A stretch of DNA of 8,860 bases from a virus. Taxonomy: Duplodnaviria; Heunggongvirae; Uroviricota; Caudoviricetes. Shown in pieces: positions 786-8,860 of this stretch (within the stretch, counting starts at the first letter, position 1; each line of letters starts with the position of its first letter). Below the pieces are notes generated by a model, which worked only from the letters and a program-made list of their open reading frames with translations, was not told the DNA's origin and did no database searches. Location: the IMG/VR virus record IMGVR_UViG_2698536312_000010. One strand, written 5' to 3'. The position numbers and the translations under genes were made by a program.

Positions 786-1797
786 AACTGGAAGATTTAC
801 CGAAATACTACTCCCCAAAATCCCCTTGCCTGACCGATGCATCGGCCTCAACGTCAAAAGATGCGCTGAGTATCACTGATGTGATGGCCGCGCAGGGCAT
901 GACACAGAATCGGGCTGAGATGGGGTTTTCTGCGTTCCTGGGGAAAATGGGCATCAGTATGAATGACAGGGCGCGGGCAACAGAATTACTGGCAGATTAT
1001 GCACTCAGTCGGTGCGATCGTGTGGCGGCGTTGAGAAAACTTCCGGCAGAAATAAAACCGGTAGTGATGCGCATTATGGCTTCGTACGCTTTTGANNNNA
1101 GAATCGGGCTGAGATGGGGGTTTCTGCGTTCCTTGGGAAAATGGGCATTAGTATGAATGACAGAGAGCGGGCAACAGAATTGCTGACAGAATATGCACTC
1201 AGTCGGTGTGATCGCGTGGCGGCGTTAAGAAAACTCCCGGCAGAAATAAAACCGGCAGTGATGCGTATTATGGCTTCGTATGCGTTTGAAGATTATGCCC
1301 GTAGCGCGGCGAGCAAAAAACAGTGCCCCTGCTGTCACGGAAAAAAATTTATTGAAAGCGAGGTTTTTACAAACAAGATCCAGTATCCGGATGGTAAGCC
1401 GCCGGTATGGGCAAAGTGTACGAAAGGTGTGTATCCGTCTTACTGGGAAGAATGGAAAAAAGTCAGAGAGGTGGTAAAAGTTGCCTGTCCGGAGTGTGGC
1501 GGAAAGGGTGAGGTTTCCACCGCCTGTAAGGATTGCCGTGGGCGTGGTGTCGCCATTCATCGTGAAGAGTCGGTAAAACGTGGTATGCCTGTTATCAGAG
1601 ACTGCCAGCGTTGTGGTGGTCGTGGCTATGAAAGACTACCATCAACGGAGGCATTTAATGCTATATGCGAGGTGACAAACCAGATAACACGCGCGTCATG
1701 GGAAAAAACAGTTAAGAAATTCTATGATGCGCTGGTGACCCGGTTTGATATTGAAGAAGCATGGGCTGAGCGGCAGTTAAAAAAGGTAACTAGGTAA
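782..1797 (+). CDS. Q: Late-gene antiterminator Q-like protein with DnaJ-type zinc-finger repeats; reading frame interrupted by a 4-N scaffold gap and a duplicated segment
   Basis: The 5' part (782-1095) and 3' part (1100-1797) encode the same protein. About 190 bp either side of the Ns (905-1095 and 1100-1290) are diverged copies of each other (roughly 92% identical by eye), which shifts the frame by 194 nt. The C-terminal half has CPCCHG, CPECGGKG, CKDCRGRG and CQRCGGRG motifs. The gene sits directly upstream of a pR'-like promoter. Confidence 0.75.
1096..1099. other. Scaffold gap (4 N) between two diverged copies of the same Q segment
   Basis: Literal nnnn, flanked by near-identical sequence on both sides. 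Confidence 1.
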
Positions 1798-1802
1798 CAA
1801 GG

Positions 1803-1830
1803 TTGATTTTTCCGGAATCTGTGGTAAATT
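1803..1830 (+). promoter_or_regulatory. Sigma-70 late promoter, pR'-like (-35 TTGATT, 16-bp spacer, extended -10 TGgTAAATT)
   Basis: TTGATT at 1803-1808 and TAAATT at 1825-1830 with TG at 1822-1823, located 6 bp after the Q stop. Resembles lambda pR' (TTGACT / TAAATT) as I recall it. Confidence 0.5.
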
Positions 1831-1878
1831 CGTCATAACGATGGGCGTTTTATGCCTGACGTTAGAAGAGTTTCTACA

Positions 1879-1902
1879 ACCCGCCGCCGAGCGGGTTTTT
1901 TA
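1879..1902 (+). terminator. Intrinsic terminator, tR'-like, about 50-70 nt downstream of the late promoter
   Basis: Stem CCCGC (1880-1884), loop CGCCGA, stem GCGGG (1891-1895), followed by TTTTTTAT. Confidence 0.55.
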
Positions 1903-2021
1903 TGACTGAAATCGCGTCAGTACAGTAAACGCGCTGGTGGCGGTGAATACCTGTCTTTCAGCTTGCTGGCTTTTTCGACAAGAGTTATTGGTGTGTCACG
2001 TTAACCGGAAAAGGAAAAGAC

Positions 2022-2219
2022 ATGCTAAAACAGCAGGATATGACAGAAACCGCCAGAGTGGTGTTTAATGAATTAAGCGTTACCGAACCGGCGACAGTCG
2101 GGGAGATAGCGCAGAATACTTACCTTTCACGCGAACGCTGCCAGTTAATACTGACCCAGCTGGTTATGGCGGGTCTGGCAGACTATCAGTTCGGTTGTTA
2201 CAGACGCCTTCCGCAGTGA
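2022..2219 (+). CDS. Small hypothetical protein (65 aa), possibly helix-turn-helix-like
   Basis: ATG at 2022 preceded by AAAGGAAAAG. The segment TVGEIAQNTYLSRERCQLILTQLVMAGL looks like an HTH, judged by eye only. An intrinsic terminator overlaps its stop. Confidence 0.5.
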   Translation: MLKQQDMTETARVVFNELSVTEPATVGEIAQNTYLSRERCQLILTQLVMAGLADYQFGCYRRLPQ

Positions 2220-2230
2220 AGGCTTTTTTA
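2206..2230 (+). terminator. Intrinsic terminator overlapping the stop of the 65-aa ORF
   Basis: Stem GCCTTC (2206-2211), loop CGCAGT, stem GAAGGC (2218-2223), then TTTTTTA. Confidence 0.5.
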
Positions 2231-2369
2231 TTTGTGGTAAATGGGCGGCTGGTGGGTGTTAGGGGCACCCACCAGCCATCTGCTCATGCGTTGGGTTCAC
2301 AAGCAAACCTCAGGCCCACTGCTTTGCGCAAAAGCAGAATGAGCCTATCAGAGACAGGCTTAATGATCC

Positions 2370-3428
2370 ATGCTTAATACTGTAAAAATATCCAGTTGTG
2401 AGTTAATCAACGCCGACTGCCTGGAATTTATCCGGTCGTTACCCGAAAATTCTGTTGACCTGATAGTCACGGACCCGCCGTACTTTAAAGTGAAGCCTGA
2501 GGGCTGGGATAACCAGTGGAAGGGCGACGATGATTACCTGAAGTGGCTGGACCAGTGTCTGGCGCAGTTCTGGCGGGTGCTGAAACCTGCCGGAAGTCTT
2601 TACCTGTTCTGTGGTCATCGCCTGGCATCTGATATCGAAATCATGATGCGTGAACGCTTCAGTGTGCTGAACCATATTATCTGGGCGAAGCCGTCCGGAC
2701 GCTGGAACGGATGCAACAAGGAAAGCCTGCGGGCGTATTTCCCCGCCACAGAGCGCATTCTGTTCGCGGAACATTATCAGGGGCCGTATCGTCCGAAAGA
2801 TGCCGGGTATGCGGCGAAGGGCAGTGCACTGAAACAGCATGTGATGGCCCCGCTGATTTCTTACTTTCGTGATGCGCGAGCTGCCCTGGGGATAACGGCA
2901 AAACAGATTGCAGATGCCACAGGAAAGAAAAACATGGTGTCGCACTGGTTCAGTGCCGGTCAGTGGCAGTTGCCGAATGAAAGCGATTATCTGAAATTAC
3001 AGGCGCTGTTTGCCCGGGTGGCAGAAGAGAAGCATCGGCGTGGTGAACTGGAAAAGCTCCACCACCAGCTGGTGGATACGTATACCTCACTGAACCGGCA
3101 GTATGCGGAGCTGCTGAGTGAATATAAACATCTGCGGCGGTATTTTGGCGTGACGGTGCAGGTGCCGTATACCGATGTGTGGACGCATAAACCGGTGCAG
3201 TTCTATCCCGGGAAACATCCGTGCGAAAAACCGGCAGAAATGCTGCAGCAGATAATCAGCGCTAGCAGTCGTCCGGGTGACCTGATTGCAGATTTTTTCA
3301 TGGGGTTGGGTTCGACAGTGAAAGCGGCACTGGCGCTCGGGCGTCGTGCAATTGGCGTTGAGCTGGAGACTGAACGTTTTGAGCAGACGGTTCGGGAAGT
3401 ACAGGATTTAGTCAGCCAGAACGGATGA
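2370..3428 (+). CDS. Beta-class DNA methyltransferase (N6-adenine or N4-cytosine), orphan
   Basis: 352 aa with DPPY (motif IV) near the N-terminus in VTDPPYF and an FxGxG AdoMet-binding motif (DFFMGLGST) near the C-terminus; this order is diagnostic of beta-class amino-methyltransferases. No restriction-enzyme partner in the window. Confidence 0.9.
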   Translation: MLNTVKISSCELINADCLEFIRSLPENSVDLIVTDPPYFKVKPEGWDNQWKGDDDYLKWLDQCLAQFWRVLKPAGSLYLFCGHRLASDIEIMMRERFSVLNHIIWAKPSGRWNGCNKESLRAYFPATERILFAEHYQGPYRPKDAGYAAKGSALKQHVMAPLISYFRDARAALGITAKQIADATGKKNMVSHWFSAGQWQLPNESDYLKLQALFARVAEEKHRRGELEKLHHQLVDTYTSLNRQYAELLSEYKHLRRYFGVTVQVPYTDVWTHKPVQFYPGKHPCEKPAEMLQQIISASSRPGDLIADFFMGLGSTVKAALALGRRAIGVELETERFEQTVREVQDLVSQNG

Positions 3429-3468
3429 TATTGAAGAATTAATTACGCGTCGTTATTATGCGGCTCCC

Positions 3469-3544
3469 GGCCCTTTAGCTCAGTGGTGAGAGCGAGCGAC
3501 TCATAATCGCCAGGTCGCTGGTTCAAATCCAGCAAGGGCCACCA
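3469..3544 (+). tRNA. ileZ: tRNA with CAU anticodon, Ile2 (lysidine) type; encoded 3' CCA present
   Basis: Manual cloverleaf: acceptor GGCCCTT/AAGGGCC, D-stem GCTC/GAGC, anticodon loop CTCATAA (CAT at 3502-3504), T-arm GCTGG-TTCAAAT-CCAGC, discriminator A, CCA at 3542-3544. Close to E. coli tRNA-Ile2 as I recall it. The symbol follows Stx-phage nomenclature and is not verified by search. Confidence 0.88.
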
Positions 3545-3644
3545 TCACAAACCGCCATTAGCTTATCAGGAAGAGCAGACGACACGATAACAGGGTTGTT
3601 GGTGCGGGGGCGGGTCCCCGATGGCGGTCCATTATCGGTATTCA

Positions 3645-3721
3645 GCGTTGTTAGCTCAGCCGGACAGAGCAATTGCCTTCTAAGCAATCGGTCACTGGTT
3701 CGAATCCAGTACAGCGCGCCA
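3645..3721 (+). tRNA. argO: tRNA-Arg (anticodon UCU, reads AGA/AGG); encoded 3' CCA present
   Basis: Manual cloverleaf: acceptor GCGTTGT/ACAGCGC with one G-U pair, D-stem GCTC/GAGC, anticodon stem ATTGC/GCAAT, loop CTTCTAA (TCT at 3679-3681), T-arm ACTGG-TTCGAAT-CCAGT, CCA at 3719-3721. The symbol is a guess from 933W-type naming (argN/argO). Confidence 0.88.
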
Positions 3722-3831
3722 TATTCATTCTTCCAGATTCCTTCCGGCAGAGCCTTATACTGAAATATACCTGGCTCAGGATATTGTTGAAAATATTTTA
3801 TGTTTGTCAAAAATAAAAGTTCTGTTAAGTA

Positions 3832-4185
3832 TTGATTGAGTGTTTGTTATACGGTCTAATGGTTTTTTCAGCATTAAATATTTATCATTCATATGGTGTG
3901 GGTAGAGTGAATATTGATGAGGCGTCGGGGTGTTTCATCCTTAGGCAGCGTATTGATATAGTCAATGCAGCACGAGCAAAGGCCTTCAGCCGTTTGACAG
4001 TTTTGTTCTGTACTCCTGATCGTCTTTCGGGAAGAGACGTTATTATTCTGAATAGTGATGCTATACAGAGGGTTTGCGATGAGTTCATGGTTGCTAATTC
4101 AGAATTATTTGCTCTTGTTCAGGAGTACAACAGAATAGCCAGGACCTGTGGTATGGATGAACTTCGGATTACTCATCTGGGGTAG
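3832..4185 (+). CDS. Hypothetical ORF (117 aa from TTG; 108 aa from first ATG at 3859) immediately after the tRNAs
   Basis: Open frame only; no convincing Shine-Dalgarno for either start and no recognisable motif. An antisense ORF (3885-4088) overlaps it. Position corresponds to where stxA begins in Stx phages, but the product does not resemble StxA. Confidence 0.3.
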   Translation: MIECLLYGLMVFSALNIYHSYGVGRVNIDEASGCFILRQRIDIVNAARAKAFSRLTVLFCTPDRLSGRDVIILNSDAIQRVCDEFMVANSELFALVQEYNRIARTCGMDELRITHLG

Positions 4186-4389
4186 ATACATATCTGGATT
4201 ATCACCTGTTACGGTAAAAAGTGATTGCTTACTGTTTTTGTGAATGGCATTGCAGCAGCCGGATAATGTCAGTGCTGGCTGACGGTGTGCTGGTGGCGGG
4301 TGTGGTGGTTGTTGCTTTCCCGTTGCTGAAAAAGAAAACGCCAGACTGTTAGCCGGGTATCAGTTAGCGGGAGAAATTTTTAAATACTT

Positions 4390-4611
4390 CACAATTCAGG
4401 CGGTTGACTGTTGTCTGGTTTGCGGGGAGTTTGTTAAAAGAAACTGGCATGGTGAATCCCCCTGTGCGGAGGGGCAATCAGCGAGTAGGTATATGGGATA
4501 ATCGCGGATTCAGGTGCTGGTACTGAATTCACCGGGAGGCACCCGGCACCATGCAATGGCACATAGCGCCACTCTCCAGCCCCTCTCCGGAGGGGCTGTT
4601 TATATTGATTT
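4390..4611 (+). repeat. Repeat family copy 1: candidate small-RNA gene with 5' hairpin and intrinsic terminator
   Basis: The stretch from GTTTGTTAAAAG (4429) to the terminator is near-identical to copy 2 and shares conserved blocks with copy 3. 5' hairpin CCCCT-GTGCGG-AGGGG at 4458-4473. Terminator stem AGCCCCTC (4577-4584), loop TCCG, stem GAGGGGCT (4589-4596), then GTTTATATTGATTTT. Confidence 0.8.
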
Positions 4612-4632
4612 TGTCAGATGTGAGTAAACTCC

Positions 4633-4968
4633 TTATGGACTTTGTTGTTTTAGTCCATAAGGACATATTTGCAGAGTGCAACGGTTATTAAAGCATTCAT
4701 TCAATACGTTATCTGTATTTGTAGGGCATTCCTGGCTGTTTTTGATTAAATTCCAGAATGTTTTATTGAATGGTACTACGTTGTAAATGGTTACAGGTAG
4801 CACTTTGTTATTGAGCATGATGCCTGTGTGAGTCAGTGTAAATATACTTTCAGGAGGTAAGAAAGCATCCGATTGATACCAGATTATTAATTTTATTTTA
4901 CTCCATATGACTGAAAAAGATATTCCGCATGATGGCTGGATAACTGTATCAATCACAATCCACTTCAT
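4633..4968 (-). CDS. Hypothetical cysteine-rich protein (111 aa) in AT-rich DNA, opposite strand to the phage late genes
   Basis: Only long ORF in this interval. Good Shine-Dalgarno on the minus strand (AAGGA, 6-nt spacer, ATG at 4968-4966). AT-rich upstream region with a TATACT -10-like hexamer (plus coordinates 5009-5014). C-terminal cluster of four cysteines ([26 protein letters not shown]). A 10-bp perfect stem-loop (4631-4662) spans the stop codon. No family recognised. Confidence 0.45.
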
Positions 4969-5236
4969 TTAGTTTCCTTGTTTATGCCTTGCTGGTGATG
5001 TTCTGAAAAGTATAAATGATATTTTTGAATGTAAACCATAGAGCAGAATTATTTTTCTGATGTTGTTTATTGTTTATTTAAATGCAGGGTGGTTTATATC
5101 TCGTCTTGTAGTTTATCCATGCATATCTGCTTGATAATCAGGTTTTTATTTAAGGTATGGTTTTGTGTTTTTTCTGTATTACATGTCAGGTATTTTAAAG
5201 AATTATTTTTCAGATGGTGGAAAGAACCATGGCATT

Positions 5237-5248
5237 TNNNNNNNNNNN
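5237..5248. other. Scaffold gap (12 N) immediately 5' of repeat copy 2
   Basis: Literal N-run; the sequence after it begins exactly at a conserved repeat block. Confidence 1.
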
Positions 5249-5421
5249 GTTTGTTAAAAGAAACTGGCATGGTGAATCCCCCTGTGCGGAGGGGCAATCA
5301 GCGAGTAGGTATATGGGATAATCGCGGATTCAGGTGCTGGTACTGAATTCACCGGGAGGCACCCGGCATCATGCAATGGCACATAGCGCCACTCTCCAGC
5401 CCTCTCCGGAGGGGCTTTTCT
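5249..5421 (+). repeat. Repeat family copy 2 (5' end hidden by the gap); near-identical to copy 1
   Basis: 5249-5415 matches 4429-4596 with two differences (caccatg to catcatg, and one C missing in the terminator stem). Sequence downstream of the terminator is unrelated to that after copy 1. Confidence 0.8.
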
Positions 5422-5475
5422 GTGCCGGATACATCACAGTTTCTGGAACCTTAGGTACTACAGTATCAGTCAGGG

Positions 5476-5484
5476 TGCTATATT
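5476..5484 (+). promoter_or_regulatory. Candidate extended -10 promoter (TGcTATATT) for a short independent transcript ending at the 5610-5637 terminator
   Basis: TG at 5476-5477 and TATATT at 5479-5484; no clear -35. The terminator lies about 120-150 nt downstream. Confidence 0.35.
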
Positions 5485-5609
5485 TTCAGATGTGATGAAA
5501 GCCTGTCAGCAGGCAGGGCGTATCGGAAATGACCCAGTAGAGAAAACGTTGACTCAGATACCGGTGCTGAGTTACCGGGAAACCGGCATCACATGACCGC
5601 TATCCTTCC

Positions 5610-5637
5610 AGGCCCATCCGCTCCGGTGGGCCTTTTT
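5610..5637 (+). terminator. Intrinsic terminator (GC-rich hairpin plus T5)
   Basis: Stem GGCCCA (5611-5616), loop TCCGCTCCGG, stem TGGGCC (5627-5632), then TTTTT (5633-5637). Confidence 0.5.
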
Positions 5638-5676
5638 ACTGCAGAAAACAGGTTCCCCGTTAAATGCTATGTTGCT

Positions 5677-5908
5677 CACAATTCAGTAAGTTGACAGTTG
5701 CCTGTCAGACTGGGCATTTGTTAAAAAAATTTCGCATGGTGAATCCCCCTGAGCGGAGGGGCGACTGGTGACGGTATAATCTCTGATTATCAAAACGAGA
5801 ATGACGCGGGTTTAGTGGCACCGGGCTGAACTCACCGGGAGGCACCCGGCACCATGTGCATGATGATACAGATACGCGGCTTTAGCCCCTCTCCGGAGGG
5901 GTTTTCTT
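5677..5908 (+). repeat. Repeat family copy 3: diverged copy with the same conserved ends and a different core
   Basis: Shares CACAATTCAG, GTTGAC-GTTG-CTG, TTTGTTAAAA, GCATGGTGAATCCCCCTG-GCGGAGGGGC, TCACCGGGAGGCACCCGGCACCATG and the terminator hairpin (CCCCTC-TCCG-GAGGGG, 5886-5901, then TTTTCTT) with copy 1. The intervening core sequences are unrelated. Confidence 0.75.
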
Positions 5909-5913
5909 GTGGG

Positions 5914-5943
5914 CAAAAAAAGCCCGCGCTGGGAGACGCGGGC
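5914..5943 (-). terminator. Possible minus-strand intrinsic terminator facing the N gap
   Basis: Hairpin GCCCGCG-CTGGGAGA-CGCGGGC (5922-5943) preceded on the plus strand by A7 (5914-5920), which is a U-run on the minus-strand transcript. Confidence 0.35.
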
Positions 5944-5973
5944 GGCAAGGAATAAACAATAAAACGTGAAGTA

Positions 5974-6164
5974 NNNNNNNNNNNNNNNNNNNNNNNNNNN
6001 NNNNNNNNNNNNNNNNNNNNNNNNNNNNNNNNNNNNNNNNNNNNNNNNNNNNNNNNNNNNNNNNNNNNNNNNNNNNNNNNNNNNNNNNNNNNNNNNNNNN
6101 NNNNNNNNNNNNNNNNNNNNNNNNNNNNNNNNNNNNNNNNNNNNNNNNNNNNNNNNNNNNNNNN
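5974..6164. other. Scaffold gap (191 N) immediately upstream of the nanS-p start
   Basis: Literal N-run. Six-frame ORFs crossing it are artefacts. Confidence 1.
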
Positions 6165-6182
6165 TCCCGGCCGGGAGGATTC

Positions 6183-8036
6183 ATGGCATTTAAACACTAT
6201 GACGTGGTCAGGGCGGCATCGCCGTCAGACCTTGCGAAACGACTGACACAAAAACTGAAGGAGGGCTGGCAGCCGTTTGGTAGTCCGGTGGCCATAACCC
6301 CTTATACCCTGATGCAGGCGATTGCAGCAGAAGGTGATGTGGTCGTCAGTGGTGCAACTGAGCCGGAGTGGTACTACGTCATCGTACTGGCCGGGCAATC
6401 CAATGCCATGGCTTACGGTGAAGGTCTTCCGCTTCCGGATTCATACGATGCGCCCCATCCGCGCATTAAGCAACTGGCCCGTCGTAACACAGTGACTCCC
6501 GGTGGTGAAGTATGCGTATTTAACGACATCATTCCTGCTGACCATTGTCTGCATGATGTTCAGGATATGAGTACGATTAACCATCCCCGGGCTGACCTGA
6601 GCAAAGGGCAGTACGGCTGTGTCGGACAGGGCTTACATATTGCCAAAAAACTGCTTCCGTATATCCCTAATAATGCGGGGATCCTGCTGGTACCATGCTG
6701 TCGTGGTGGTTCGGCATTCACCCAGGGCACGGAGGGGACATTCAGCGAGTCCACGGGGGCCAGTCAGGATTCGGCTCGCTGGGGAGTGGGTAAGCCGTTA
6801 TATCAGGATCTGCTTTTCCGCACGAAGGCAGCATTGCAGAAAAACCCGAAAAACGTTTTGCTGGCGATATGCTGGATGCAGGGGGAATTCGATATGACGA
6901 ATGCCAGTTACGCCCAGCAGCCAGCAGCATTTCTTGCAATGGTACAGCAGTTCCGTGCTGACCTTGCCGGGCTGGCGGCGCAGTGTCACGGTGGAAGTCC
7001 GGCATCAGTCCCCTGGATTTGTGGCGACACGACATACGCGTGGAAACAAGAACACGGTACGCAATATGAAGTGGTATATGGTGCATATAAAGGTAAAGAA
7101 TCCCAGCAGATTTATTTTGTTCCCTTTATGACCGATGGTAGCGGAGTTAATACACCGACAAACAACCCGTCAGAAGATCCTGATATTGCCGGGTCTGGTT
7201 ATTACGGTTCGGCATCCCGAACGAACAAAAACTGGGTATCATCAAATCGCCCGACGCATTTCAGCTCATGGGCGCGTCGTGGCATTATTCCCGATCGTAT
7301 GGCAACTGCTATTCTGAACGTAGCCGGTCGCACCTTAGCCTTCATTAGTGGTAAGGCACCGGAAATCAAACCCTCGCCCGGCGGCGACACGCCATCGGGG
7401 CCGTCTGAAGATGCATCCATACGCACAATCTCCCTGTTGCCGACAGCCGGAGACGCTGCTGCGCAGGGCTGGAGCATTAAGAATGGCGGAGTTCAGTTGT
7501 CAGATGGTGTATTTAAGATCACCAAGCAGAGCAATAAAGCCTGGTCCCTGACGCGCCCGGTGGATGACGCAGTCTCCCTGCTGACACGGGGTGGCAGACT
7601 GAGCTGTAAGTTTCGACTGTCAGGCGCACTGACCACCAACCAGTTCGGTCTGGGAATTTATCTGTATACCGATGTAGCGTTACCTGACGTCGTGGCGATG
7701 ACCGGGACTGGTAACCCGTTCCTGATGTCGTTCTTCACCCAGACCACAGACGGCAAACTGAATCTGATGCATCACAAGAAAGCAGGAAACACAAAGTTGG
7801 GCGAGTTCGGGAATTACAGTAACGACTGGCTGACGCTGGAGCTGGTGTTCACCGCCGGCAGTGCCACGGTTACTCCGAAACTGAATGGAGTGGCTGGCCC
7901 GGCATTCCAGGTCATAAAAGACAGTCTGACACTGGGGCTGAATGCGCTGACGCTGACGGATATTACCAAAAATGCAGCGTATGGCGTTGAGATAGAAAGT
8001 CTGGTGCTGGAGATAAATGCACCGGCATCATCATAA
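6183..8036 (+). CDS. nanS-p: Prophage sialate O-acetylesterase, NanS-p type (DUF1737 N-terminus plus SASA/SGNH esterase domain)
   Basis: 617 aa. The N-terminus MAFKHYDVVRAASPSDLAKRLTQKLKEGWQPFGSP matches the DUF1737-type start and VLAGQSNAMAYG carries the GQSN catalytic-serine motif of SASA esterases, both from memory. GGGAGGA sits upstream of the ATG. Position between the toxin-cargo slot and holin S is the canonical one in 933W-like phages. In-frame upstream sequence is open into the gap, so the true start could lie within it. Confidence 0.88.
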   Translation: MAFKHYDVVRAASPSDLAKRLTQKLKEGWQPFGSPVAITPYTLMQAIAAEGDVVVSGATEPEWYYVIVLAGQSNAMAYGEGLPLPDSYDAPHPRIKQLARRNTVTPGGEVCVFNDIIPADHCLHDVQDMSTINHPRADLSKGQYGCVGQGLHIAKKLLPYIPNNAGILLVPCCRGGSAFTQGTEGTFSESTGASQDSARWGVGKPLYQDLLFRTKAALQKNPKNVLLAICWMQGEFDMTNASYAQQPAAFLAMVQQFRADLAGLAAQCHGGSPASVPWICGDTTYAWKQEHGTQYEVVYGAYKGKESQQIYFVPFMTDGSGVNTPTNNPSEDPDIAGSGYYGSASRTNKNWVSSNRPTHFSSWARRGIIPDRMATAILNVAGRTLAFISGKAPEIKPSPGGDTPSGPSEDASIRTISLLPTAGDAAAQGWSIKNGGVQLSDGVFKITKQSNKAWSLTRPVDDAVSLLTRGGRLSCKFRLSGALTTNQFGLGIYLYTDVALPDVVAMTGTGNPFLMSFFTQTTDGKLNLMHHKKAGNTKLGEFGNYSNDWLTLELVFTAGSATVTPKLNGVAGPAFQVIKDSLTLGLNALTLTDITKNAAYGVEIESLVLEINAPASS

Positions 8037-8121
8037 AAAGTGAGCCAGCCAAATGGAAGGTATCGTTAAACTCACCGGTAGTGTCAGTGGGTCGTCTGAG
8101 ATGCCTGCATGAGTTATCAGA

Positions 8122-8151
8122 GCCATCAGTACTTAACTGGTGGCTTTTTTT
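8122..8151 (+). terminator. Intrinsic terminator between nanS-p and the holin gene
   Basis: Stem GCCATCAG (8122-8129), loop TACTTAA, stem CTGGTGGC (8137-8144) with one G-U pair, then T7 (8145-8151). Confidence 0.5.
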
Positions 8152-8186
8152 ATTGTTGTCAGCTTCCGGATAACGGGAGACGGGGT

Positions 8187-8402
8187 ATGTACCAGATGGA
8201 AAAAATCACAACAGGTGTGTCATACACCACGTCAGCGGTGGGAACGGGCTACTGGTTCCTGCAGTTGCTGGACAGGGTTTCCCCGTCTCAGTGGGCGGCA
8301 ATAGGCGTGCTGGGGAGTCTGCTGTTTGGGCTGCTGACATATCTGACTAACCTGTATTTCAAAATCAGAGAGGACCGTCGTAAGGCTGCACGGGGAGAGT
8401 AA
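8187..8402 (+). CDS. S: Class II holin (pinholin), phage 21 S21-like, with dual-start motif
   Basis: Product [71 protein letters not shown] resembles S21 as I recall it. Two Met codons (8187 and 8196) give the Met1/Met4 antiholin/holin arrangement. GGGAGA lies 6 nt upstream. The six-frame ORF starting at 8109 is an upstream extension that runs through the terminator. Confidence 0.85.
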
Positions 8403-8406
8403 TTCA

Positions 8407-8721
8407 ATGACTCAAAACTATGAACTGATTGTGAAAGGGATCCGCAATTTTGAGAATAAAGTTACGGTAACTTTAGCGTTACGGGACAAAAAACGCTTTG
8501 ACGGTGAAATTTTTGACCTGGACATCTCGCTGGACCGTGTTGAAGGTGCCGCGCTGGAGTTTTATGAGGCAGCAGCCAGAAGGAGCATCAGACAGGTCTT
8601 CCTGGATGTTGCTGCCGGGTTATGTGAAGGGGACGAGCTGTTGCCAGAAACGCGCCCCTGTTCAGAGGCGCGGTATACCATAAAAATTAACAGTTCTGAT
8701 AACTCGATTACGGGTTGTTAG
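8407..8721 (+). CDS. Small hypothetical protein (104 aa) inserted between holin and endolysin; YdfR-like by position and size
   Basis: GGAG 9 nt upstream of ATG 8407. A roughly 103-aa ORF of unknown function sits between the holin and lysozyme genes in Qin-type cassettes (ydfR), from memory; sequence identity is not verified. Confidence 0.55.
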   Translation: MTQNYELIVKGIRNFENKVTVTLALRDKKRFDGEIFDLDISLDRVEGAALEFYEAAARRSIRQVFLDVAAGLCEGDELLPETRPCSEARYTIKINSSDNSITGC

Positions 8722-8776
8722 CTTTTTGCAGTTGGCTTTCCAGTATCTTTCATTGGTAGCATCCTGATAAATATCC

Positions 8777-8860
8777 ATGAGCGCAAAAATCAAATACGGC
8801 CTGTCAGCTGCTGTTCTGGCGCTGATTGCAAAATGGCATCTGAATCGATCGCAGTTTGGC
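8777..8860 (+). CDS. R: Start of the probable endolysin gene (partial; runs off the window end)
   Basis: MSAKIKYGLSAAVLALI resembles the N-terminus of E. coli prophage lysozymes (M-AKI-YGLSAAVLAL) as I recall it. Only 28 codons are visible, there is no clear Shine-Dalgarno, and the sequence after LALI departs from what I remember. Confidence 0.4.
   Translation, partial: MSAKIKYGLSAAVLALIAKWHLNRSQFG

What the first reader, a model, noticed from the sequence alone, without database searches (positions are those of the whole stretch)
3722..6182. The Stx cargo slot carries no stx genes but AT-rich cargo with several autonomous small transcription units
The flanking order (Q, pR'/tR', methylase, tRNA-Ile2, tRNA-Arg, then cargo, then nanS-p, S, R) matches Stx2-converting phages, where stxAB lie between the tRNAs and nanS-p. 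Here that 2.4 kb holds no StxA/StxB-like ORF. It contains a 117-aa ORF, a 28-43 codon hydrophobic peptide ORF, three copies of an sRNA-like repeat each with its own terminator, a promoter/terminator unit at 5476-5637, and a minus-strand 111-aa cysteine-rich ORF with its own Shine-Dalgarno. This slot is where lambdoid phages carry lysogenic-conversion genes expressed on induction, so unannotated content here is a prime candidate for a new function. Two assembly gaps fall inside it, so content is incomplete.
Basis: partly seen in the sequence, partly recalled or inferred. Interest (0 to 1): 0.72.

Follow-up and report, generated by a model that had tools for sequence, protein, structure and literature searches.

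The report
Known prophage cargo, stitched scaffold
The "empty Shiga-toxin slot" of this E. coli prophage holds already catalogued regulatory cargo (the RpoS-stabilising protein IraL, STnc100-family small RNAs, two small proteins of unknown function), and its crowded layout arises because the draft assembly joined the slots of two different prophages end to end.

Summary
Almost all of it is already catalogued.

- **The 111-aa minus-strand ORF** is 100% identical to IraL of E. coli CFT073, a characterised RssB anti-adaptor that stabilises RpoS.
- **The three "sRNA-like repeats"** are STnc100 (Rfam RF02076, 120-161 bits). This is the Hfq-bound sRNA EcOnc27 that also follows stx2B in phage Sp5.
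- **The unit at 5466-5639** is a diverged STnc100 paralogue that keeps the family's structure.
- **The hydrophobic peptide** is a DUF3927 protein.
- **The "117-aa ORF"** is most likely a 92-aa gene (3907-4185, phrog_2873). It is under purifying selection, and RefSeq does not annotate it in the four genomes carrying this allele that I inspected. Its function is unknown.
- **A convergent minus-strand sRNA** of the EcOnc08/21/42 type ends at 5916.

The interval is a scaffold chimera. Positions 3722-5237 and 5249-6182 are alternative cargos of two prophages. Closed genomes run from 5237 straight into nanS-p. Sibling draft assemblies show 5249-8860 contiguous with its own tRNA array. None of 5,426 complete genomes has both parts in tandem. 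The 191-N gap hides about 145 nt of ordinary leader sequence.

Verdict: ordinary and already known. The residual interest lies in the 92-aa orphan gene and in tandem arrays of STnc100 paralogues.

The parts
3469..3544 (+). tRNA-Ile2 (anticodon CAT; ARAGORN calls it Met). It is the upstream border of the slot.
   Evidence: It is annotated tRNA-Ile (ileZ) at the same position in 042, JJ1886, CFT073 and Sakai.
3645..3721 (+). tRNA-Arg (TCT), the last backbone element before the cargo.
3907..4185 (+). A 92-aa protein gene with a GTG start. It belongs to PHROG family phrog_2873, is predicted to be a two-helix hairpin, and has no known function.
   Evidence: The UC4315 orthologue (L009 3571-3849) has the same start and stop with no indels. 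It shares 60% aa identity, with dN/dS 0.27 against about 1 in the other frames and 25/23/44 differences by codon position. Upstream of the GTG, the alignment has frame-breaking indels. phrog_2873 scores 194.8 bits, with no Pfam, NCBIfam or PADLOC match. AlphaFold2 gives pLDDT 85. Only 19 cluster representatives exist among 1.84 billion proteins; every named source is Escherichia, Shigella or Citrobacter.
4221..4352 (+). A 43-aa hydrophobic peptide of the DUF3927 family (PHROG label 'TciB-like').
   Evidence: Pfam PF13064 scores 95.6 bits against a cut-off of 25. phrog_1470 matches. RefSeq annotates it as WP_000562553.1 at the same place.
4418..4607 (+). STnc100-family sRNA gene, copy 1. It has its own terminator at 4577-4598, and a conserved upstream box starts near 4389.
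   Evidence: RF02076 scores 132.4 bits against a gathering score of 47. The terminator is and the alignment.
4633..4968 (-). iraL, which encodes an RssB anti-adaptor that stabilises RpoS. It is antisense to the phage late transcript.
   Evidence: It is 100% identical (111/111) to the CFT073 potB-island protein WP_000871291.1, which is IraL of PMC4045071. It shares 62% identity with K-12 IraM. NCBIfam NF007393 scores 162 bits against a cut-off of 121. It matches PDB 8TWD (IraM) at E = 9e-32 over residues 1-78.
4969..5237 (-). The iraL promoter and leader region (29-35% G+C). The inferred -35 is TTTACA (5035-5030), the inferred -10 is TACTTT (5012-5007), and the inferred TSS is near 5000. The last 9 bases (5229-5237) are the start of a nanS-p gene, where this contig ends.
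   Evidence: 256 of 260 bases are identical to the CFT073 iraL upstream region. The sequence was read. The paper's construct boundary of +33 relative to the TSS fits an ATG 32 nt downstream of 5000 (PMC4045071); this placement is an inference. The junction is shown.
5238..5248 (.). An 11-N scaffold join between contigs that come from two different prophages.
5249..5427 (+). STnc100 copy 2, cut at its 5' end by the contig start. It is the first element of the second prophage's slot.
   Evidence: RF02076 scores 120 bits. Positions 5249-5402 are 99% identical to 4429-4582. In UTI89 and L012 it sits directly after tRNA-Arg with its full 5' region.
5466..5639 (+). A diverged STnc100-family paralogue with its own terminator at 5610-5633.
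   Evidence: RF02076 scores 30.1 bits, below the gathering score of 47, with E = 4e-5 on the local search. Every helix of the model is kept with changed sequence. RNAalifold shows compensatory pairs. It is present in 673 of 5,426 complete genomes as two alleles (100% and 90.6%) and is never annotated there.
5705..5914 (+). STnc100 copy 3, the most canonical copy. Its conserved upstream box starts near 5676.
   Evidence: RF02076 scores 161 bits. Its position is the same as STnc100/EcOnc27 after stx2B in Sakai Sp5, which scores 207.7 bits.
5916..5973 (-). The 3' end (seed CCUUGCC plus terminator 5943-5922) of a convergent minus-strand sRNA of the EcOnc08/21/42 and EPEC PP6 type. Its 5' part lies in the gap.
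   Evidence: 48 of 53 positions are identical to the EPEC RIL-seq sRNA E2348C_1409.E2348C_1408.IGR. The EcOnc08/21/42 northern probe matches the sibling sequence inside the gap (28 of 31 locally, 30 of 35 over the full length).
5974..6164 (.). A 191-N gap. Sibling assemblies and UTI89 have 145 nt here: the 5' part and promoter region of the minus-strand sRNA, a plus-strand hairpin, and the nanS-p leader. No ORF is hidden.
6165..8036 (+). The nanS-p leader (6165-6182) and the nanS-p gene (6183-8036, 617 aa; DUF1737 + SASA esterase + DUF6645). It is the downstream border of the slot.
   Evidence: Pfam matches are. It is 100% identical to L012, L013 and L014. The leader is shared with UTI89 and Sakai.

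Best explanation
The interval is the moron slot between the Q-dependent late promoter/tRNA array and nanS-p. Stx phages carry stxAB at this position. As it stands in the window, it is a scaffold concatenation of the slots of two resident non-Stx lambdoid prophages.

**Slot A (3722-5237)** is the widespread module '92-aa phrog_2873 protein, DUF3927 peptide, STnc100, iraL'.

**Slot B (5249-6182)** is 'STnc100, diverged STnc100 paralogue, STnc100, convergent EcOnc08/21/42-type sRNA, nanS-p leader'.

**How it works.**
- Shown for an identical protein elsewhere: iraL faces against the late transcript and is read from its own promoter in the lysogen. IraL binds the adaptor RssB and blocks delivery of RpoS to ClpXP, so RpoS is raised during growth.
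- Shown for homologues: the STnc100 genes are Hfq-binding sRNAs ending in intrinsic terminators.
- Inferred: the STnc100 genes are expressed from their own promoters.
- Inferred: the paralogues share a conserved scaffold and differ in two hypervariable stretches, which probably set different target sets.
- Shown for the EPEC homologue: the convergent minus-strand sRNA pairs with targets such as the cfa 5'UTR through a CCUUGC seed.
- Inferred from orientation: on induction, Q-modified polymerase reads through all plus-strand units, adding the two small proteins to the late transcript.
For: **Identity of the parts.**

**Literature.**
- IraL function and TSS: PMC4045071.
- IraM-RssB structure: PMC10844676.
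- Convergent Hfq-bound sRNAs in the moron site, and EcOnc27 at about 235/247 nt with Hfq dependence: PMC4104026.
- STnc100 = EcOnc27 = sRNA103: PMC12711010.
- EPEC sRNA with cfa and tir chimeras and its seed motif: PMC8550237.

**Chimera.**
- Closed genomes skip 5238-6181.
- UTI89 is colinear with 5249-6402.
- Sibling drafts are 100% identical to 5249-5973 and 6165-8860, with their own tRNA array upstream and 145 nt in place of the gap.
- In those siblings, slot A continues into another nanS-p allele.
- 0 of 5,426 complete genomes have the tandem.

**Each slot exists on its own at 99-100% identity.**
- Slot A: the full module is in 042, CFT073, JJ1886 and EPEC PP5; its first 504 nt recur at 80% coverage or more in 1,183 genomes.
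- Slot B: 353 genomes, including UTI89, S88 and IHE3034.
Against: - No transcript data exist for this strain.
- The promoters of the STnc100 copies are not defined. The consensus scan found none in front of them, so their autonomy rests on homologues.
- The physical linkage in the source genome was inferred from sibling assemblies and closed genomes, not from reads of this isolate.
- Mosaic slots that mix elements of A and B do exist. PCN033 has STnc100, unit 2, STnc100, iraL, so recombinant layouts are possible in principle.
- The roles of the 92-aa protein and of DUF3927 remain unknown.
Confidence: 0.85

Rival explanations
1. The tandem layout is real. In this strain one prophage slot carries slot A followed by slot B, for example after recombination between STnc100 copies or nanS-p starts, and the N-runs only mark short unresolved stretches.
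For: STnc100 repeats and nanS-p 5' ends are shared between prophages and could mediate unequal recombination. Closed genomes do show long multi-copy slots: UC4315 has five STnc100 copies, and PCN033 mixes unit 2 with iraL.
Against: - No complete genome among 5,426 has it.
- The left contig stops 9 nt into nanS-p, and the next contig starts inside the repeat shared with copy 1. This is the signature of repeat-bounded contigs.
- Sibling assemblies place the 5249-8860 block behind its own tRNA array and place slot A in front of a different nanS-p allele.
- The Q gene shows the same kind of overlapped join.
Confidence: 0.06
2. One reading: the slot carries uncharacterised lysogenic-conversion functions that are new to biology.
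For: - The 92-aa gene is conserved under purifying selection and has no family annotation beyond 'unknown'.
- It is not annotated in the four RefSeq genomes inspected that carry this allele.
- DUF3927 has no tested function.
- Physiological targets of STnc100 are barely known.
Against: - Every element is 99-100% identical to sequence present in hundreds to thousands of sequenced E. coli genomes, and each belongs to a catalogued family.
- The largest ORF is a characterised protein.
- Nothing about the arrangement is specific to this window except the assembly artefact.
Confidence: 0.1
3. The ORF at 3832/3907-4185 is not a gene. It is chance open frame in AT-rich spacer or part of a non-coding RNA.
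For: PGAP leaves it unannotated in 042, JJ1886, CFT073 and E2348/69. There is no convincing Shine-Dalgarno before the GTG (sequence). No Pfam or NCBIfam family matches.
Against: - The frame, start and stop are conserved at 72% nucleotide identity without indels.
- dN/dS is 0.27 against 0.84-1.11 in the other frames, and substitutions are in excess at third codon positions.
- The divergent 92-aa allele is annotated as a protein in NCBI records such as WP_042054068.1.
- AlphaFold2 gives a confident helical hairpin.
Confidence: 0.1

Closest known systems
IraL of uropathogenic E. coli CFT073 (Hryckowian et al. 2014, PMC4045071), a paralogue of K-12 IraM
   Same: The protein is 100% identical. The context is the same (tRNA array, DUF3927, STnc100, iraL, nanS-p). 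The upstream region is 256/260 identical.
   Different: Nothing detectable. RefSeq names it 'IraM'. It shares 62% identity with K-12 IraM. [quoted passage not shown]
STnc100 (Rfam RF02076) = EcOnc27 (EHEC Sakai) = sRNA103 (EDL933)
   Same: Three copies score 120-161 bits. They have the same helices and terminator, and the same position just upstream of the convergent sRNA and nanS-p as in Stx2 phage Sp5.
   Different: The copies differ from the Sp5 copy in two hypervariable stretches. The unit at 5466-5639 keeps the structure but falls below the family threshold.
EcOnc08/21/42 (Sakai Sp4) and the EPEC PP6 sRNA E2348C_1409.E2348C_1408.IGR
   Same: The strand is minus and convergent with STnc100. 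The 3' 53 nt are 48/53 identical to the EPEC RNA, including the CCUUGC seed and terminator. The EHEC probe matches the sibling sequence.
   Different: Only the last roughly 58 nt lie in the window; the rest falls in the N-gap.
Anti-sRNAs AsxR and AgvB (Tree et al. 2014; Rfam RF02703, RF02702)
   Same: It occupies the same slot and is an sRNA convergent with STnc100, upstream of nanS-p.
   Different: There is no Rfam match. Only the terminator end aligns with AsxR. The homologues are about 180-271 nt rather than 51-60 nt.
Stx2-converting phage Sp5 / 933W-type late region
   Same: The order is Q, tRNA-Ile/Arg, moron, STnc100, convergent sRNA, nanS-p, lysis genes.
   Different: There is no stxAB. 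The moron is iraL plus small genes in slot A, and slot B has no protein moron at all.
PasD1/PasD2 of EPEC (Pearl Mizrahi 2021; Zhu, Shabalina and Storz 2026 preprint)
   Same: It is a prophage sRNA just upstream of the esterase gene and is reported to be structurally related to STnc100.
   Different: The PasD probe sequence is absent from the window and from the sibling loci, even allowing 6 substitutions.

Membership tests
IraM/IraL/RssC anti-adaptors | Sequence membership: the NCBIfam NF007393 model above its cut-off, and identity to a characterised member. | tested here: met
   It scores 162 bits against a cut-off of 121. It is 111/111 identical to CFT073 IraL and 62% identical to K-12 IraM.
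IraM/IraL/RssC anti-adaptors | A PmrD-like N-terminal domain as in the IraM-RssB crystal structure. | tested here: met
   phmmer against PDB 8TWD_A gives E = 9e-32, with residues 1-78 aligned end to end. The fold description comes from PMC10844676. This was tested by sequence only; no model was built.
IraM/IraL/RssC anti-adaptors | Binds RssB and stabilises RpoS. | not testable with these tools
   This is shown for the identical CFT073 protein in PMC4045071.
STnc100 (RF02076) | A covariance-model score at or above the gathering score of 47 bits. | tested here: met
   4418-4607 scores 132.4 bits, 5238-5427 scores 120, and 5705-5914 scores 161.
STnc100 (RF02076) | The same threshold, applied to the unit at 5466-5639. 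| tested here: not met
   It scores 30.1 bits (E = 4e-5 locally). It is therefore filed as a diverged relative, not as a member.
STnc100 (RF02076) | A conserved secondary structure supported by compensatory changes. | tested here: met
   RNAalifold on 13 copies predicts 35 pairs, 17 of which have a double change that keeps the pair. Unit 2 contributes compensatory changes in the closing helix. The alignment is from MAFFT and was not fitted to the structure.
STnc100 (RF02076) | An Hfq-bound, discrete transcript. | not testable with these tools
   This is shown for the Sp5 copy, EcOnc27 (Hfq CRAC; northern about 235/247 nt), in PMC4104026.
AsxR/AgvB anti-sRNAs (RF02703/RF02702) | A covariance-model match. 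| tested here: not met
   There is no hit at E <= 1 in the window or at E <= 10 in the complete UTI89 copy. The Sakai control gives AsxR at 88.1 bits.
AsxR/AgvB anti-sRNAs (RF02703/RF02702) | A position convergent with the plus-strand sRNA, between the moron and nanS-p. | tested here: met
EcOnc08/21/42-type sRNA | Sequence match to the experimentally detected RNAs. | tested here: met
   48/53 positions match the EPEC RNA 3' end. The northern probe matches 28/31 locally (30/35 over its full length) in the sibling sequence, with minus-strand sense.
Stx-converting phage | stxA and stxB between the tRNA array and nanS-p. | tested here: not met
   tblastn of Stx2A/B finds nothing in 3722-6182. The resolved gap sequence in the siblings holds no ORF.
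DUF3927 (PF13064) | A Pfam model score above the gathering score. | tested here: met
   It scores 95.6 bits against 25.
PasD sRNAs | Presence of the PasD core sequence (northern probe target). | tested here: not met
   There is no match with up to 6 substitutions in the window, L012, L003 or L010.
Known anti-phage defence systems (PADLOC) | Any protein model match for the three slot proteins. | tested here: not met
   0 families at E <= 0.01.

The most novel reading that the evidence does not exclude
The most novel reading has two parts.

**A diversifying sRNA cassette system.** The STnc100 genes in this slot may form a diversifying cassette system. Closed genomes carry head-to-tail arrays of up to four or five paralogues (UC4315, PCN033, UTI89). 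The paralogues share a rigid, covarying scaffold but differ almost completely in two internal stretches. Prophages could thereby shuffle 'programmable' Hfq sRNAs with different host targets, much as AsxR and AgvB vary their 5' ends.

**An overlooked moron gene.** Alongside this, the 92-aa phrog_2873 helical-hairpin gene is found by DNA match in about a quarter of complete E. coli genomes. It is unannotated in the four RefSeq genomes inspected that carry this allele. It may be an overlooked moron that acts with IraL or DUF3927 on host regulation.
Probability: 0.2. Interest if true: 0.45.

Novelty: already known. Interest (0 to 1): 0.15.

Why it matters
There are three practical lessons.

- **N-runs in draft prophage regions.** They can signal concatenated alternatives rather than missing sequence, so 'unusually rich' slots in such scaffolds should be checked against closed genomes.
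- **Annotation gaps in this slot.** In the RefSeq genomes inspected, IraL is named IraM and STnc100 and its diverged paralogue carry no annotation. A spurious antisense pseudogene is called across the STnc100 copy in the five of these genomes that show it. The 92-aa gene is omitted in the four that carry this allele.
- **Biology.** Non-Stx relatives of Stx phages use the toxin slot for host regulators: an RpoS stabiliser and Hfq sRNAs. This was already known in outline from work on EHEC, EPEC and UPEC.

Tried and rejected
- **AsxR/AgvB identity for the minus-strand sRNA.** Rejected. There is no Rfam hit although the Sakai control scores 88 bits, and only the terminator aligns.
- **PasD, PasA or PasB identity for any unit in the window.** Rejected. 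The probe sequences are absent. PasC lies after the esterase in EPEC PP5, which carries slot A.
- **The 5466-5639 unit as a protein-coding or promoter/terminator cassette of a new kind.** Rejected in favour of a diverged STnc100 paralogue.
- **Function for the 92-aa protein.** Pfam, NCBIfam, PADLOC, a PDB sequence profile, and Foldseek against PDB and viral models gave nothing significant. The hits were only generic helical hairpins with E >= 0.3. A full HMMER scan of 1.84 billion representatives found just 19 relatives, all 'hypothetical'. An IraP-like anti-adaptor idea was considered, but no sequence support appeared in the NCBIfam or Pfam scans.
- **A PhoP-box search upstream of iraL.** This was considered by eye only. 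The K-12 iraM upstream region does not align with this one, which is consistent with the different regulation reported for IraL.
- **A sigma-70 consensus promoter for the STnc100 copies.** The scan found none. A TTAAAT box about 10 nt upstream of the conserved CACAATTCAG fits the northern size of EcOnc27, but this is inference.

Full report
**1. What is in the sequence**

The window is the late-regulatory region of an E. coli lambdoid prophage. It contains, in order:
- RusA (411-785);
- antiterminator Q, split by a 4-N join;
- a 65-aa ORF;
- a DNA methyltransferase (2370-3428);
- tRNA-Ile2 (CAT, 3469-3544) and tRNA-Arg (TCT, 3645-3721);
- the interval in question;
- nanS-p (6183-8036; DUF1737 + SASA esterase + DUF6645);
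- holin and a DUF1327/YdfR protein.

These assignments rest.

The slot has 12 terminator-like hairpins against 2.1 +/- 1.6 in shuffles. No Stx-like sequence exists: tblastn with Sakai Stx2A/B finds nothing in the slot. Low G+C applies only to 3600-5250 (29-45%). The stretch 5250-5970 is about 50%.

**2. Identity of each element**

*The 111-aa minus-strand ORF (4633-4968).*
- It is 111/111 identical to WP_000871291.1 in the potB-island prophage of CFT073.
- That protein is IraL, shown by Hryckowian et al. (PMC4045071) to bind RssB and stabilise RpoS during logarithmic growth.
- It is 62% identical to K-12 IraM.
- It passes NCBIfam NF007393 (162 bits against 121).
- It matches the crystallised IraM domain (PDB 8TWD) over residues 1-78 at E = 9e-32.
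- The five cysteines lie mostly in the less conserved C-terminal tail.
- The 260 nt upstream are 256/260 identical to CFT073.

*The 43-aa hydrophobic ORF (4221-4352).* It is Pfam DUF3927 (95.6 bits) and phrog_1470, 'TciB-like'.

*The three repeats.* They are STnc100, Rfam RF02076, at 132, 120 and 161 bits against a gathering score of 47.
- In Sakai phage Sp5 the same family (207.7 bits) lies 75 nt after stx2B and is followed by the convergent AsxR and nanS-p.
- That copy is EcOnc27, an Hfq-crosslinked sRNA of about 235/247 nt (PMC4104026 supplement). The EcOnc27 probe matches it exactly. It is called sRNA103 in EDL933 (PMC12711010).

*The 'promoter/terminator unit' at 5466-5639.*
- It scores only 30.1 bits for STnc100. 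The alignment nevertheless keeps every helix with different bases.
- In an independent MAFFT/RNAalifold analysis of 13 copies, 17 of 35 pairs show compensatory change, and this unit contributes several in the closing helix.
- It occurs in 673 of 5,426 complete genomes, in two alleles, and is never annotated there.
- I therefore call it a diverged relative of STnc100, not a member.

*The minus-strand terminator (5943-5922).* It closes an sRNA whose last 53 nt are 48/53 identical to the EPEC RIL-seq sRNA 'E2348C_1409.E2348C_1408.IGR'.
- That RNA has the seed CCUUGC and 767 chimeras with the cfa 5'UTR. It is listed as a homologue of EHEC EcOnc08/21/42.
- The EcOnc08/21/42 northern probe matches the sequence that fills the window's gap in sibling assemblies, with minus-strand sense.
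- It is not AsxR or AgvB by Rfam or by alignment.

*The '117-aa ORF'.*
- A divergent copy in strain UC4315 (72% nucleotide identity) conserves a 92-codon frame from GTG 3907 to the same stop without indels.
- The sequence upstream of the GTG has frame-breaking indels.
- dN/dS is 0.27 in frame against 1.11 and 0.84 in the other frames. Differences by codon position are 25/23/44.
- It belongs to phrog_2873, function unknown (194.8 bits).
- It has no Pfam, NCBIfam or PADLOC match.
- It is predicted to be a two-helix hairpin (pLDDT 85), with only generic structural neighbours.
- It has just 19 cluster representatives among 1.84 billion proteins. Every named source is Escherichia, Shigella or Citrobacter, and every name is 'hypothetical'.
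- PGAP does not annotate it in 042, JJ1886, CFT073 or E2348/69.

**3. The interval is a scaffold chimera**

- In closed genomes JJ1886 and AF39, window 1100-5237 aligns colinearly and is followed immediately by 6182-8658. Window 5229-5237 (ATGGCATTT) is the nanS-p start codon region that appears again at 6183-6191.
- Window 5249-5973 and 6165-6402 are colinear with UTI89 (99.7%), where this block directly follows tRNA-Ile/Arg/Arg.
- An exact-protein look-up of this NanS-p found sibling draft assemblies: GCA_001253895.1, GCA_001252175.1 and GCA_001252135.1.
  - They are 100% identical to 5249-5973 and 6165-8860.
  - They have 145 nt and no N where the window has 191 N.
  - They run upstream, without interruption, into their own three-tRNA array.
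- In those same assemblies, the block identical to window 3692-5237 continues into a different nanS-p allele, or into a 57-aa DUF1737 stub cut by an IS3-family element.
- No complete genome among 5,426 covers at least 80% of 3722-5972 in one place. Slot B is found whole in 353 genomes. Slot A's full module is in 042, CFT073, JJ1886 and EPEC PP5, and its first 504 nt recur at 80% coverage or more in 1,183 genomes.
- The second contig starts inside the 154-nt segment shared at 99% with copy 1. This is typical of contigs that break at repeats.
- The Q gene shows the same symptom at its 4-N join.

So the 'two gaps' do not hide cargo. The first is a false join. The second hides about 145 nt of conserved leader, which also occurs upstream of nanS-p in Sp5.

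**4. Mechanism**

Shown for identical or homologous molecules elsewhere:
- IraL blocks RssB-mediated delivery of RpoS to ClpXP.
- STnc100/EcOnc27 and the EcOnc08/21/42-type RNA are Hfq-associated sRNAs.

Inferred here:
- iraL is expressed in the lysogen from its own promoter. The candidate is -35 TTTACA (5035-5030) and -10 TACTTT (5012-5007). This puts the ATG about 32 nt from the start site, in line with the +33 boundary used in PMC4045071.
- The plus-strand small genes and sRNAs are additionally read through by Q-modified polymerase on induction.
- The STnc100 paralogues share a scaffold and differ in two hypervariable stretches (alignment A5, columns about 103-146 and 201-232). These stretches may set target specificity.

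**5. Comparison and novelty**

Everything in the interval is 99-100% identical to sequence in hundreds to thousands of sequenced E. coli genomes, and it falls into catalogued families. Slot A is the CFT073/042/JJ1886/EPEC-PP5 module. Slot B is the UTI89/S88/IHE3034 module and the Sp5 post-stx backbone. The finding is therefore already known, apart from the unknown functions of phrog_2873 and DUF3927 and the poorly defined targets of STnc100.

Real closed genomes do hold tandem STnc100 arrays. UC4315 has five copies, four of them head to tail. PCN033 has STnc100, unit 2, STnc100, iraL. This is the most interesting residue, and I did not find it described explicitly in the papers read.

**6. Verdict**

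- Observation: partly confirmed. The features are real; the single-slot premise is false.
- Interpretation: partly supported. The slot is right and there is no stx, but the cargo is not new.
- Interest: 0.15.

Noticed in passing
window 906-1095 and 1100-1289 (4 N at 1096-1099): The same segment of the antiterminator Q gene appears twice at 92% identity on either side of a 4-N run. This is another scaffold join of contigs from two prophage alleles, and it breaks the Q reading frame in the window.
   Followed up: partly
window 4434-4562 (-); L001 5716-5841; L003 5009-5134; L004 5331-5456; L007 13270-13395; L010 5701-5826: RefSeq/PGAP annotates a partial 'hypothetical protein' pseudogene on the strand opposite to STnc100, while the sRNA itself is not annotated. 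It looks like a spurious call that has been propagated by protein homology.
   Followed up: partly
L009 (UC4315) 2167-2379 and 4139-5118; L015 (PCN033) 1263-1920: Closed genomes hold tandem arrays of STnc100 paralogues in this slot: five copies in UC4315, four of them head to tail, and STnc100, unit 2, STnc100, iraL in PCN033. The copies share a covarying scaffold but have two hypervariable stretches.
   Followed up: partly
window 4380-4400 and 5667-5690; alignment A5 columns 3-22: A conserved TTAAAT...TCACAATTCAG box lies about 30 nt upstream of the Rfam STnc100 model start. A 5' end there would fit the roughly 235-nt northern size of EcOnc27 better than the 206-nt model. The conserved TTGAC(A/T) further downstream may therefore be inside the RNA rather than a -35 element.
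   Followed up: no
window 4577-4640: STnc100 copy 1 and iraL are convergent, with only 25 nt between the sRNA's end and the iraL stop codon. Read from the iraL side, the shared hairpin lacks a T-run. iraL transcription may therefore run antisense into the sRNA gene.
   Followed up: no
L009 (UC4315) 2756-3849: The divergent allele of the 92-aa gene sits 90 nt downstream of a 241-aa helix-turn-helix (AraC-like) gene in the same slot. This suggests the small gene travels as a cassette with different neighbours.
   Followed up: no
L010 (EPEC E2348/69 PP5) 5001-8400: EPEC prophage PP5 carries slot A, and PasC lies just after the esterase (the probe matches exactly at 8373-8397). In the EPEC RIL-seq tables, the iraL mRNA (E2348C_1245) forms chimeras with Spot 42 (11 reads), and it has low RNA-seq counts.
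   Followed up: partly
window 8037-8186: The short nanS-p-to-holin spacer carries a strong plus-strand hairpin plus T-run (about 8121-8150). No Rfam family and no PasA or PasC probe matches there. In EPEC the corresponding spacer is 447 nt and encodes PasA on the opposite strand.
   Followed up: partly
window 3469-3544: ARAGORN labels this CAT-anticodon tRNA as Met.
   Followed up: yes
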